Position numbers and translations under genes: made by a program | Origin: the human T2T-CHM13v2.0 reference genome, Homo sapiens | Assembly (NCBI RefSeq): GCF_009914755.1 | Contig: NC_060927.1 | Length of the DNA: 64,000 nucleotides | Strand: one strand, 5' to 3' | Shown: piece by piece, positions 20,483 through 63,879 of the stretch | How positions within the stretch are numbered: the stretch's first letter is position 1 | Layout of the letters: every line of letters begins with the position of its first letter | The notes under the pieces: generated by a model | Told to the model about the DNA's origin: nothing | The model's input: the letters and a program-made list of their open reading frames with translations, nothing else | Database searches by the model: none

Positions 20483-20775
<293 letters not shown>

Positions 20776-20794: not shown

Positions 20795-21098
<304 letters not shown>

Positions 21099-38289: not shown

Positions 38290-39160
<871 letters not shown>

Positions 39161-40900: not shown

Positions 40901-41135
40901 TATGATAAGGCAAAAACAAAAAAGGAAAAAGAAATTAAAAGACCTAAAGTGCAGAAAAGAAATAAAACTGTCATTAACAGATGACATGATTGTATGCATA
41001 AAAAACCTTATACAATCTATAAAAAAAACTTGAACTAATTAATGAACTTAGTAAGGCCACAGGTTAGAGTCAACATAAAAATCATACTAGAAACAACAGC
41101 TAAAATAGGTGAAAATATCACCATTAAAAATATCT

Positions 41136-41650
<515 letters not shown>

Positions 41651-54496: not shown

Positions 54497-54824
<328 letters not shown>

Positions 54825-56177: not shown

Positions 56178-56500
<323 letters not shown>

Positions 56501-60018: not shown

Positions 60019-60746
60019 GTAGGAGTGGGGATCAAGGATTCTCTTACCAAAAGGAAAGAGGAAAGATTGGATATTCGAGGACAATCTCTACCACTCTACC
60101 TTCTGTTATAATTTTAAGCCACTAAAACAATTTTTATTTTCCTATTTATTGTGTTTCTTGTCTAGTGAAATAGGCTGAGATCAGGCTCTGTGATTTATCC
60201 CTCTGTGTAAATACACCAGCATATGTTATCTTGAACATAGATGGCATGCATTAAAAAAATGTATACTTGATTTATATATTGATGTTCAGAGTATCTAAAA
60301 AAGCACTATGGCCAGCCCCCTTCCTCATTCCTATATTCTCCTGTATCTACTTATTACCTGTTTAATGAATGCTACCTGTACAGCTTTAATTCTCAACCTA
60401 GTTGAACAGACTGGATTGGAACCTATGAAGTAAAAGTTTAAAAATACAATATAAATTGATTGATTCAGGGCAGGTTGCTGCTAGTAGCAACTACTATCTT
60501 TTACTACTTGAGGTAAAGATATTACTATCCTATCTTGAGGTAGTACAATTACACGTAATGGAAAACCAAGAGCTTTCCAATGCGGCTTCATTATTTAATT
60601 GTAAGTGTATTTCCTGGACATAACGTATAATTACATTCATGAGTACACTTTAAAACAGAGTTTTTCCCTGAAAGATTTTTGAGTCCTTCCCCCTCTGTCC
60701 CCTTCATCAGTGTTTATAGTAAAGAGATGACTATAGTGCTGGGTAT

Positions 60747-61142
60747 TGTTAAAAACTTCAGCCAAATTAAATTTAAAGGAGTTTAATTGAGCAATGAACA
60801 ATTTGTGAACTTGGCAGCCCCCAGAATCACAGCAGATTCAGAGAGACTCCAGCACAGCCATGGGATGGAAGAGGATTTATGGACAGCAAAAGGAAAGTGA
60901 CAGTACAGAAAACGGAAGCGAGGGGCAGAAACAGCTGGGTTGGTTCCAGCTCAGTATTTGCCTTATTTGAACATGGTTCGAACAGTTGGCTACATTTGAT
61001 TGGCCAAAACCCAGTGATTGGCATAGGTGTGGGCTACGGTCGGTTTACACCTCTACTTGTTACAGTTTACAATATACAGAAAAATCTTTAGGCCAAACTT
61101 AAATACATAAGGAGGCAGCTTTAGGCTAAACTTGACTTAACA
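60747..61142 (-). mobile_element. MER57-family (ERV1) solo LTR
   Basis: TG...CA termini, 396 bp, perfect 4-bp TSD gtat. Reverse complement begins tgttaagtcaagtttagcctaaagctgcctcctta. Three ATTGG/GTTGG CCAAT-type boxes. Confidence 0.88.
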
Positions 61143-61706
61143 GTATGACTCTACATAGTATGGACCTGTTTATGGATGGTCATATAAGGCTCATTTTAAA
61201 ACTGACTTCACAATTTACTGATTCAGTGTTAATATCTTATCATCTTTGACTTCTAGTTCTTCACTTGCTGTACTCACACACTGTAATCTTATATTAGAAT
61301 GAAAAGTACTAATGTATGCCTTACCAGTTTTACATTTGATATGGACCTTGGGGGAATTGTCCCTGCTCTCTCATATCCAGTTTCCCCAAATCCTTCCCCT
61401 TCAAGGTCTACCTCCTTGTTGAAACTGACCATAACCACACCCCGCCCCCGCCAACCCCAAATGGTCATTCCATCAAAGAGAAGAAAGACTTAATTCAAGC
61501 TCTGGGTAAGAGGGTGGCAGTGCAGACTGGGACTAGTAGAGCAAACTGCAGCATTAGACCAGGCTGTGTTTGTGTAAGGACAAGCCTTTATTCCCTTCAC
61601 AAGCGTGCCAACTTGCCAAAGATAAGTAAATCGTAAGTATCGGCTATCATCTGGTCTAGGAAGAGCGGCTCTTGGCCTTGACTCAGCCTCACTTCACATT
61701 CCCAGA

Positions 61707-62127
61707 GCTCTTGATGAGCCTCAACTTGGGGCATCTTTGTTCTTGTCATATTTGTCTCCAGGGGACTTAGATGTTTCCCTAAGGGACAGGACATATCTAT
61801 CTGCTAAGGGTCTGCTCCTACCTCTCTGTGTCAACAGAGGGCAGCAGAGAGCATCACCCGGTAGCCTAACCTGTAGGCTTCAAACCGGGGCAACGGCAAT
61901 CCAAGTGCCTAGGGAAGCAAATGCCTGGGGAGTGTACGCATTGCCCCCGTTTGAAGCCTATAGGTTAGGCTACCGGGTGATGCTCTCCGCTGCCCTCTGT
62001 TGACATAGAGAGGTAGGAGCAGACCCTTAGCAGATAGATATGTCCTGTCCCTTAGGGAAACATCTAAGTGCCCTGGAGACAAATGTGACAAGAATAAAGA
62101 TGCCTCAAGTAGAGGCTCATCAAGAGC
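61707..62127. repeat. Long inverted repeat: 187-bp arms (61707-61893, 61941-62127), 47-nt spacer
   Basis: Manual alignment gives 178/187 matches, no gaps, and a longest perfect run of 63 bp (61765-61827). Confidence 0.97.
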
Positions 62128-62740
62128 CTCAAGAACAACACTGGGACTGTTATAAGTATGGGGGGGGGGCAGGGTACTAAATGTGTTGCTGTGTGTAGGA
62201 TGGTCCCATTCAAGGAAGTCTATTCTTGCCCCCAAATTTCAGTTACCTTTCTTCTAGTATTGTATCCCAAATTCAAGTAAAACATTCCTGTCTACCCCAC
62301 TAATTTAACATCTACACCATTTTGTATTGTTACTCATCTCACCAAAGCTCCTTGATACTTAGAAACTGGCTTTTTAATCTTTGCATTGCTACTTCTTAAA
62401 AATTTATCCTTAATTTTACTCATTGGATGATGAAAAACAGGTCTTTAAAGGGGGAGGGTTAACAGGTAATGGATAGAATTTAAAAGTATAGTCAGTTTCA
62501 ATAGATAACAGAGTTTAGATAAAAGCTATATTAGACGAGCCAATCTTCCCGGGGCCCTAATTTTCTCACAAGTAAAATGGAACCAACAACTACCCTATTT
62601 TAAAGAAAGTTGTAAACTGTAAAGTGCAGTATAAGATCGTTTACAAAGAATGTCTAGGACCAGATTTGCTCCCAATTATTATTTCTGGAATTTAGATATC
62701 TGAAACTCCAAAAGAGTGTAATATAATGAAGATACATTAA

Positions 62741-63211
<471 letters not shown>

Positions 63212-63879
63212 GCAAAGAGAACTCAGAATTGACTTTAAAATGAAGGTCAGAAAAAGGATAGGTCACAGGAAAAATACACTTTTATAACCTTTGAATAGAG
63301 AGAAATAGAAAAAAAAATTAAGAGATTCAAAGTTATAATCTGTCAACCACAGAATAAGAATAACCTAAGAGAAAATGCATGAAATTCAGAAATATAAAAT
63401 ATGTTTAGTTATAGTTTTGATTATGAGGTTATTGAGTAACATAACTAACATTGTTTACCATGCTGAGGTGCTGTGCTATACCTGTAATTACTTCCATTTT
63501 ACAGTGAGTCATTTAAGTGAACATTTAAGTAACCTTGCCCAGGGCTTCAGAATTAATGTATCTTAAAGCCTGGATGAATTGAGATAAACGGTAAAAAGAT
63601 TTCTGTGAAGGTCACTGACTTCAAAATATCAAAGATACAGCTTGCTATTGAGAGGAAATACTGGGTCTTTAAAATGTCGAACTTTTGATGGTGACAAAGA
63701 TAATAATAATAAAGTGTAAACACCATGTGAGAGTTAGAAGACAGAATTTGAAAGTTAGTCTACCAATATATTGAAATTATTAATGTCAGAAAAGGAATTC
63801 TATAGTACAGGGAATCTGATTTTAATTTGGTTTTCTTGAATAGGATGAAAGAGAATCAATTAATGACATTGTGTTAATA

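What the first reader, a model, noticed from the sequence alone, without database searches (positions are those of the whole stretch)
61707..62127. Long, near-perfect inverted repeat not recognised as a transposon: candidate hairpin-RNA (endo-siRNA/ADAR) or cruciform locus
Seen: arms 61707-61893 and 61941-62127 (187 bp each) are reverse complements at 178/187 positions with no gaps, including a 63-bp perfect core, around a 47-nt spacer. The sequence is complex, matches no Alu, L1, LTR or MITE I recognise, and has no evident TSD. Established: long, close, high-identity inverted repeats are rare and unstable in mammalian genomes. When transcribed they form dsRNA that Dicer/Drosha, ADAR1, PKR and MDA5 can engage, and inverted duplications are a known origin of new small-RNA genes (e.g. 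Drosophila hpRNAs). Inference: a stem of this length could yield several phased ~22-nt duplexes and may be an unannotated hairpin-RNA gene or a fragile site. I cannot tell whether it is already annotated.
Basis: partly seen in the sequence, partly recalled or inferred. Interest (0 to 1): 0.85.

Follow-up and report, generated by a model that had tools for sequence, protein, structure and literature searches.

The report
Single-copy inverted duplication in MAP3K13 intron
A stretch of unique DNA inside an intron of the human MAP3K13 gene was copied back-to-front next to itself some tens of millions of years ago, leaving a long hairpin-forming repeat that is real and not a transposon, with nothing so far showing that it is a small-RNA gene.

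Summary
Arms 61707-61893 and 61941-62127 are complementary at 178 of 187 positions without gaps, with a 63-bp perfect run and a 47-nt spacer. Complementarity drops to chance just outside the arms and inside the spacer.

The arm occurs nowhere else in the T2T genome, by DNA, six-frame or pattern search. Length-matched controls from an old repeat gave thousands of candidates. Both flanks are unique. There is no target-site duplication and no significant Rfam match.

Best reading: a one-step fold-back or template-switch inverted duplication of local intronic sequence. Arm divergence of 5% suggests roughly 10-45 million years of decay.

In the sense pre-mRNA it should fold into a ~187-bp stem (-394 kcal/mol). 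That stem is an expected ADAR substrate, degraded with the intron.

Small-RNA output is untested and disfavoured for mammalian somatic cells. No outgroup genome, Dfam, editing or small-RNA data were available.

It is a new member of a catalogued class, non-repetitive intronic dsRNA-forming repeats. Interest is modest.

The parts
61707..61893 (+). Left arm of the inverted repeat (187 nt). Tentatively the source copy.
   Evidence: GC 0.51, continuous with the GC of the left flank (0.45-0.49 at 61300-61700), whereas the right flank beyond 62200 is 0.32-0.36. This is only a weak hint of polarity.
61894..61940 (+). Non-palindromic 47-nt spacer, the apical loop of the hairpin.
   Evidence: Only 3 of 23 mirrored positions are complementary, so it is not a decayed palindrome centre. 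The c61894/a61940 mismatch is followed by a g61895-c61939 pair (read), so the repeat may once have been 189 nt.
61941..62127 (-). Right arm, the reverse complement of the left arm at 178/187. Tentatively the inserted copy.
   Evidence: It is the only other genomic match of the left arm (95%, E = 2e-78).
61150..61706 (.). Unique left flank.
   Evidence: The own-genome search returns only itself, 1 candidate. Complementarity with the right flank is at chance (21/100, 48/200).
62128..62741 (.). Unique right flank, up to the Alu cluster.
   Evidence: The own-genome search returns only itself, 1 candidate.

Best explanation
A lineage-specific, one-step inverted duplication of about 187 (perhaps 189) bases of unique intronic DNA. 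I propose it arose by fold-back (snap-back) priming at a break or by an intra- or inter-strand template switch during replication. In the four-point model this is type '3-2-1-4' or its mirror. One arm plus the spacer is the original sequence; the other arm is the reverse-complement copy laid down beside it.

Since then the two arms have drifted apart by 9 substitutions. That suggests an age of roughly 20-25 million years (95% range about 10-45) on a neutral clock.

The locus lies in a MAP3K13 intron on the sense strand. It is therefore transcribed with the pre-mRNA and should fold into a ~187-bp, ~98%-paired stem. The expected fate is promiscuous A-to-I editing by ADARs in the nucleus and degradation with the excised intron.

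No selected function is required. I regard it as a neutral structural by-product that happens to be a strong dsRNA former.

Shown: the repeat, its sharp edges, its single-copy status, the absence of a TSD, and the fold energies. Inferred: the mechanism of origin, the polarity, the age, the transcription, the editing and the neutrality.
For: (1) Uniqueness. The arm matches only itself and the other arm in 3.1 Gb (1 first-look candidate). A 30-mer from the core with up to 3 mismatches hits only those 2 places, with 0 reversed-pattern control hits. A six-frame search with the 125-aa open frame finds only the two arms plus two hits at E = 1.5 and 9.4 (4 matches from 7 candidates).

(2) Controls. 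A 483-nt old repeat from the same window gave 13,152 candidates with non-self hits at 72-84% identity (40 scored). A 187-nt length-matched piece of it gave 3,166 candidates with non-self hits at 72-91%.

(3) Both flanks are single-copy.

(4) Sharp edges. Complementarity is 95% in the arms, 3/23 in the spacer, and 3/10, 9/40 and 21/100 outside. There is no gapped continuation and no TSD of >=4 nt.

(5) The 9 mismatches are spread along the arm: 6 transitions, 3 transversions, one at a CpG. This fits neutral decay, and the 63-bp perfect run is unremarkable (P = 0.22).

(6) Template switching is documented to create inverted repeats and whole hairpins from non-repeated primate sequence in one event (PMC5453318 passages; PMC10710096 abstract and passages).

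(7) The hub annotation places the site inside the MAP3K13 span on the + strand, with no exon nearby.
Against: No outgroup genome could be examined, so the duplication, its polarity and its date are inferences from one sequence.

Documented template-switch hairpins are much shorter. The miRNA-like criterion in PMC10710096 was stems of 30-55 bases. Fold-back insertions described in the PMC11724301 abstract are mostly ~5-34 bp (search listing). A 187-nt copy is at the long end.

No clear microhomology is visible at either junction (read).

Five of the 6 transition differences keep a G.U pair in the sense-strand RNA, against 1 in the antisense strand. This gives 183/187 paired on + and 179/187 on -, and -394.1 against -378.4 kcal/mol. 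That is the direction expected if the sense hairpin were under selection. However, P = 0.11 one-sided, and the transcription-associated mutational asymmetry I recall would push the same way.

Dfam/RepeatMasker was not available, so a very old or very low-copy family below about 70% identity cannot be excluded. Gene conversion between the arms would make the repeat older than it looks.
Confidence: 0.6

Rival explanations
1. An unannotated hairpin-RNA gene. The stem would be processed into endo-siRNAs or miRNA-like RNAs, by analogy with Drosophila hpRNAs or mouse-oocyte hairpin siRNA loci.
For: A very stable 187-bp stem forms on the transcribed strand. The sense strand keeps more pairs than the antisense. 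Inverted duplications are a documented source of new primate miRNAs (PMC10710096 abstract).
Against: No Rfam miRNA or other family matches above noise. No third copy exists in the genome to act as a target. The stem is about five times longer than the ~35-bp pri-miRNA preference quoted in PMC10710096. Mammalian somatic cells convert expressed long hairpins with single-stranded overhangs to siRNAs inefficiently (PMC6391682). The high-activity truncated Dicer is described for mouse oocytes (PMC8069103 abstract in listing). No small-RNA data could be consulted.
Confidence: 0.07
2. A selected cis-acting dsRNA or DNA element of MAP3K13. Examples would be an ADAR-, Staufen- or PKR-binding intronic structure that tunes splicing or expression, or a duplicated regulatory element.
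For: There is a G.U-preserving bias on the sense strand (5 of 6 transitions). The block 61300-62200 is richer in G+C (0.45-0.58) than its surroundings (about 0.33). Long near-perfect inverted duplicates are reported as depleted even in pre-mRNAs (PMC7006430 passages), so a survivor might be tolerated for a reason.
Against: The bias is not significant (P = 0.11). The mismatches include 3 transversions and one A.C that break pairs. No RefSeq functional element lies here (hub table). Conservation could not be measured.
Confidence: 0.1
3. A relic of a palindromic non-autonomous DNA transposon (MITE) from a family of very low copy number or great age.
For: The whole unit is a terminal-to-terminal inverted repeat of MITE-like size (421 bp). 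The upper bound of the arm divergence (9%) just reaches the age of the youngest human DNA transposons. Hsmar1 is said to have been active until about 37 million years ago (PMC2800235 passage).
Against: No other copy exists in the genome, while the same tool finds thousands of 72-91% relatives for control repeats. There is no TSD of any usual kind; no TA or TTAA and no 8-bp repeat. Families young enough to keep arms 95% alike should have many similar copies.
Confidence: 0.06
4. An assembly or library artefact (a fold-back chimera).
For: Inverted chimeras are a known artefact class (from my own knowledge).
Against: The arms differ at 9 positions, mostly transitions, with a distinct 47-nt spacer. 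An artefactual fold-back would be identical. The unit is far shorter than the long reads behind a T2T assembly.
Confidence: 0.02

Closest known systems
Template-switch mutations that create inverted repeats or hairpins (four-point model, type 3-2-1-4 / 1-4-3-2; Loytynoja & Goldman 2017, Monttinen et al. 2023)
   Same: A reverse-complement copy of adjacent unique sequence is laid down beside its source. It has a spacer and sharp edges, needs no mobile element, and lies in a transcribed region.
   Different: The arm is 187 nt, against the tens of bases described there. The parent state is not observed here because no outgroup was available, and microhomology at the switch points is not evident.
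Non-repetitive intramolecular dsRNAs of the human dsRNAome (dsRNAscan, Andrews & Bass preprint PMC11838218)
   Same: An intronic, non-repeat inverted repeat predicted to form dsRNA. That paper predicts about half a million non-repetitive dsRNAs, of which 4,597 are edited. It states that 96% of predicted dsRNAs in protein-coding loci are intronic.
   Different: This one is much longer and tighter than their medians for non-repetitive dsRNAs (75 bp unedited, 144 bp edited). It falls below their '>300 bp and >96% paired' class of putative MDA5 substrates. [quoted passage not shown]
Drosophila hpRNA and mouse-oocyte hairpin endo-siRNA loci
   Same: A long inverted duplication giving a single long hairpin transcript.
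   Different: Those loci have sequenced Dicer-dependent siRNAs and homologous target genes. Here there are no small-RNA data and no homologous target anywhere in the genome. Human somatic Dicer is also poorly suited to such substrates.
Inverted Alu pairs, the usual ADAR substrates in introns
   Same: An intronic inverted repeat forming a few hundred bp of dsRNA in a pre-mRNA. The same window holds many.
   Different: This one is single-copy rather than SINE-derived. Its arms are 95% alike against 70-89% for the other 24 listed pairs, and its spacer is 47 nt against 77-2784 nt.

Membership tests
Palindromic MITE / DNA transposon | Multiple related copies dispersed in the genome | tested here: not met
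   Only self and the other arm. Controls gave 13,152 and 3,166 candidates.
Palindromic MITE / DNA transposon | Target-site duplication flanking the terminal inverted repeats | tested here: not met
   No shared word of >=4 nt in the 15-nt flanks; no TA or TTAA at the ends.
Palindromic MITE / DNA transposon | Match to a curated repeat model (Dfam/Repbase) | not testable with these tools
   No repeat library is on hand. The hub's list of masked stretches gives only the 20 longest, and the 421-bp unit is not among them although stretches of 340 bp are.
microRNA precursor | Match to a known miRNA family model | tested here: not met
   In the Rfam evalue scan the best hit in the repeat is mir-25: 22.2 bits against a gathering score of 40.5, E = 1.1.
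microRNA precursor | Stem of about 35 bp with an apical loop and single-stranded basal flanks | tested here: not met
   The stem is 187 bp. The preferred geometry is quoted from PMC10710096.
hpRNA / endo-siRNA hairpin locus | Long hairpin from an inverted duplication within one transcript | tested here: met
   The locus lies inside the MAP3K13 span on the + strand (hub table). Transcription itself was not observed.
hpRNA / endo-siRNA hairpin locus | Homologous trans target (parent gene) elsewhere in the genome | tested here: not met
   No third copy at DNA or six-frame level.
hpRNA / endo-siRNA hairpin locus | Dicer-dependent 21-23-nt small RNAs from the stem | not testable with these tools
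   No small-RNA data are available.
Template-switch / fold-back inverted duplication | Reverse-complement copy of adjacent unique sequence with sharp boundaries and a non-palindromic spacer | tested here: met
Template-switch / fold-back inverted duplication | Parent state (one arm only) present in an outgroup lineage | not testable with these tools
   No other mammalian genome is held; one search states that G000 has no relatives here.
Template-switch / fold-back inverted duplication | Microhomology at the switch points | tested here: inconclusive
   There is only one complementary pair (61895-61939) beyond a mismatch at the inner junction, and an ambiguous 'GC' at the outer junction (read). 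About 5% later substitution may have erased any signal.
Putative intramolecular MDA5 substrate (dsRNAscan and Barak et al. definition: >300 bp and >96% paired) | Length >300 bp with >96% pairing, and present in a cytoplasmic transcript | tested here: not met
   187 bp; 95.2% Watson-Crick, or 97.9% with G.U on the sense strand. It is intronic by the hub table.
Edited non-repetitive dsRNA / editing-enriched region | Clusters of A-to-I sites on both arms | not testable with these tools
   No editing database is on hand. Searches for MAP3K13 with 'A-to-I' gave 2 papers whose titles and abstract starts are unrelated to this locus; neither was opened.

The most novel reading that the evidence does not exclude
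A hominoid- or catarrhine-specific, single-copy 187-bp hairpin born by one template-switch event inside MAP3K13 that has been co-opted. It might be a source of Dicer- or Drosha-dependent small RNAs in germline or early embryo, or a sense-strand dsRNA element kept paired by selection (5 of 6 transitions retain G.U on the sense strand) that recruits ADAR or other dsRNA-binding proteins to regulate the host gene.
Probability: 0.07. Interest if true: 0.6.

Novelty: new member of a known kind. Interest (0 to 1): 0.25.

Why it matters
The locus would be a clean natural example of how a single replication or repair error creates a long, near-perfect dsRNA-forming structure from unique sequence inside a human gene. 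Unlike Alu pairs, reads from it map to only two places, so editing, small-RNA output and dsRNA-sensor binding can be assigned without ambiguity.

That makes it a convenient test case for three things: ADAR hyper-editing of non-repeat dsRNA, the tolerance of long intronic hairpins, and the early life of potential hairpin-RNA genes.

It does not overturn current views. Such structures are already predicted genome-wide, and most are thought to be neutral.

Tried and rejected
- Transposon: rejected as the leading reading on copy number and missing TSD.
- Known RNA family: nothing above noise.
- tRNA or SINE-like origin: ARAGORN found 0 genes in 61000-63000.
- Coding relic: the arm lies in a stop-free frame of 125 codons (61626-62000, +), mirrored on the other arm. 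Pfam gave 0 families for both translations. The six-frame genome search gave only the two arms plus two matches at E = 1.5 and 9.4. I treat the open frame as chance.
- Decayed perfect palindrome: rejected because the spacer shows 3/23 mirrored complementarity.
- Significance of the 63-bp perfect core: rejected (P = 0.22).
- Literature on this locus: 'MAP3K13' with 'inverted repeat' gave 2 papers (Drosophila JNK signalling; mouse thyroid response elements), judged unrelated from title and abstract start only. 'MAP3K13' with 'A-to-I' gave 2 papers, judged unrelated the same way. MAP3K13 has 0 occurrences in the dsRNAscan main text and in the 3 held supplement files of Barak et al. 2020.

Full report
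**Observation**

The inverted repeat is exactly as described. The repeat finder gives arms 61707-61893 and 61941-62127: 187 nt, 95% complementary, 47 nt apart. Counting base by base gives 178/187 with no gaps. The 9 mismatches fall at arm positions 17, 23, 33, 43, 58, 122, 140, 167 and 180, and the longest perfect run is 63 bp.

The chance probability of such a pair is about 3e-94 per placement.

| Molecule folded | Energy (kcal/mol) | z against 100 shuffles | Shuffles as good |
|---|---|---|---|
| + strand RNA | -394.1 | -38 (shuffles -147.6 +/- 6.4) | 0 of 100 |
| - strand RNA | -378.4 | -37 | 0 of 100 |
| Single-stranded DNA | -229.7 | -37 | 0 of 100 |

In the whole 64-kb window there are 74 inverted pairs of >=60 nt within 3 kb. 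Among the 25 listed, this is the only one at >=90% complementarity and the only one with a spacer below 77 nt. The 63-bp perfect core is not special given 9 mismatches (P = 0.22).

**Anatomy**

The edges are sharp. Outside the arms, complementarity is 3/10, 5/20, 9/40, 21/100 and 48/200, which is chance level. Inside the spacer it is 3/23. The best gapped local alignment of 300 nt of left flank against the reverse complement of the right flank is a 14-nt C-rich match. The unit is therefore arm, non-palindromic spacer, arm, and not a decayed perfect palindrome.

The 15-nt flanks share no word of 4 nt or more, so there is no target-site duplication.

At the inner junction, c61894/a61940 do not pair but g61895/c61939 do. 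The repeat may once have been 189 nt; this is inference.

The arms are 50-51% G+C with 2 and 3 CpGs against about 12 expected. The left flank has similar G+C (0.45-0.49), whereas the right flank beyond 62200 drops to 0.32-0.36. This is a weak hint that the left arm and spacer are the original and the right arm the insert.

**Is it a repeat family?**

The window's own genome (3.1 Gb) could be searched.

| Query | First-look candidates | Result |
|---|---|---|
| Arm, with spacer | 1 | Itself and the other arm (95%) |
| Arm, without spacer, E up to 10 | 1 | Itself and the other arm (95%) |
| 30-mer from the perfect core, up to 3 mismatches | n/a | Exactly those two places; reversed-pattern control 0 |
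| Control: 483-nt masked repeat from this window | 13,152 (40 scored) | 54 matches, non-self ones at 72-84% identity |
| Control: 187-nt length-matched piece of that repeat | 3,166 (40 scored) | 49 matches, non-self ones at 72-91% identity |
| Left flank 61150-61706 | 1 | Itself only |
| Right flank 62128-62741 | 1 | Itself only |
| 61000-62700 | 958 (40 scored) | 41 matches: itself, the repeat on itself, and 39 confined to the first ~148 bases, a common repeat ending near 61146 |

The tool therefore does see old interspersed repeats, and both flanks are single-copy.

Dfam was not available. A family below about 70% identity, or one with almost no surviving copies, cannot be excluded. A family young enough to keep its arms 95% alike should be easy to see.

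For scale, Hsmar1 is described as one of the youngest human DNA transposons, active until about 37 million years ago (PMC2800235, passage read).

**Other identities tested**

- Rfam at E <= 10 over 60500-63500 gave 14 matches. Within the repeat there were only mir-25 (22.2 bits against a gathering score of 40.5, E = 1.1) and a Brucella sRNA model (15 bits against 291). The significant matches are Alu-related, at 62742-63187.
- ARAGORN found no tRNA.
- The arm sits in a stop-free frame of 125 codons, mirrored on the other arm.
- Pfam gave 0 families for both translations.
- A six-frame genome search gave only the two arms plus two matches at E = 1.5 and 9.4 (4 matches from 7 candidates).

I treat the open frame as chance.

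**Origin (inference)**

A reverse-complement copy of adjacent unique sequence, with sharp edges, a spacer and no TSD, is the signature of a fold-back or template-switch event.

The four-point model of Loytynoja & Goldman describes exactly this outcome as type 3-2-1-4 / 1-4-3-2. That type made up 31% of their high-confidence human-chimp events (PMC5453318, passages).

Monttinen et al. show that such events create whole hairpins from unstructured primate sequence in one step (PMC10710096, abstract and passages).

The caveat is size. Their miRNA-like class had stems of 30-55 bases. Yeast fold-back insertions are mostly about 5-34 bp (PMC11724301, abstract in search listing only). No clear microhomology remains at the junctions.

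**Age (inference)**

The arm divergence is 4.8% (Jukes-Cantor 5.0%; Poisson 95% range 2.2-9.1%). With a long-term catarrhine rate of about 1.1e-9 per site per year, recalled from a human-macaque divergence of about 6.5% and not taken from a call, this gives about 23 million years, with a range of roughly 10-45. Gene conversion between the arms would make it older.

The accumulated differences themselves show that the structure has persisted. This argues against marked fragility and against an assembly artefact.

**What it does (inference)**

The site lies in a MAP3K13 intron on the gene's strand (hub table), so the sense pre-mRNA should contain the hairpin.

On the sense strand 183/187 positions pair when G.U is counted; on the antisense strand 179/187 do. 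Five of the six transition differences are G.U on the sense strand. This is suggestive of RNA-level constraint but not significant (P = 0.11 one-sided). It is also the direction expected from the transcription-associated mutational asymmetry that I recall.

The most likely fate is promiscuous ADAR editing in the nucleus and decay with the intron.

The dsRNAscan preprint reports several relevant figures (PMC11838218, sections read):
- 96% of predicted dsRNAs in protein-coding loci are intronic.
- Non-repetitive dsRNAs are sparse, with medians of 75 bp (unedited) and 144 bp (edited).
- The '>300 bp and >96% paired' class is rare.

Barak et al. find long near-perfect inverted duplicates depleted even in pre-mRNA (PMC7006430, passages).

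This stem is short of the 300-bp class and is intronic. MDA5 or PKR engagement would therefore need intron retention or lariat leakage.

Efficient siRNA production is unlikely in human somatic cells. Expressed long hairpins with single-stranded overhangs are poorly diced (PMC6391682, abstract and passages). The efficient truncated Dicer is described for mouse oocytes (PMC8069103, abstract in listing). There is no third copy to serve as a target.

**Is it in print?**

Searches for 'MAP3K13' with 'inverted repeat' (2 papers) and with 'A-to-I' (2 papers) found nothing on this locus, judged from titles and abstract starts only; none of the four was opened. MAP3K13 is absent from the dsRNAscan main text and from the 3 held supplement files of Barak et al..

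The dsRNAscan supplements and web resource, which may well list the locus, could not be seen.

**Verdict**

This is a real, single-copy, sharply bounded inverted duplication. It is a new member of the known class of non-repetitive intronic dsRNA-forming repeats, most likely neutral, and a good candidate for a non-Alu ADAR editing cluster.

| Reading | Probability |
|---|---|
| Neutral inverted duplication | about 0.6 |
| Hairpin-RNA gene | about 0.07 |
| Selected cis element | about 0.1 |
| Transposon relic | about 0.06 |
| Artefact | about 0.02 |

Noticed in passing
window 61626-62003 (+) and 61909-62238 (-): Stop-free frames of 125 and 109 codons run through the left arm and, mirrored, the right arm. 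Pfam gave 0 families, and the six-frame genome search found only the two arms and two hits at E > 1.
   Followed up: yes
window 61000-61146: End of a common interspersed repeat: 958 first-look candidates, and the 39 scored copies match only query positions 1-148 at 85-91% identity. The family was not identified because no repeat library was available.
   Followed up: partly
window 62742-63187: An Alu cluster (three Metazoa_SRP-like matches of 44-55 bits, plus mir-1268- and mir-3135-like sub-threshold matches) lies about 600 nt downstream of the repeat.
   Followed up: no
window 62163-62172 and 61441-61455: A run of ten G lies 36 nt past the right arm, and a C-rich tract (ccccgcccccgcc) lies 250 nt before the left arm. 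These two give the best, short local match between the flanks in reverse complement.
   Followed up: no
window 61905-61932 (spacer): The spacer holds two similar ~11-nt words in direct order (TGCCTAGGGAAG and TGCCTGGGGAG). This may be a trace of a more complex switch at the centre, or chance.
   Followed up: no
window 20610-20730 / 20808-20928 and 54526-54824 / 56178-56476: These are other close or long inverted pairs in the window: 121 nt at 84% with a 77-nt spacer, and 299 nt at 87% with a 1353-nt spacer. They lie in or beside stretches the hub lists as masked and are probably inverted SINE pairs.
   Followed up: no
window 38787-38940 / 41276-41429: The control repeat at 41129-41611 has an inverted, 70%-complementary relative at 38584-39036, so two old copies of one family lie in opposite orientation.
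   Followed up: no
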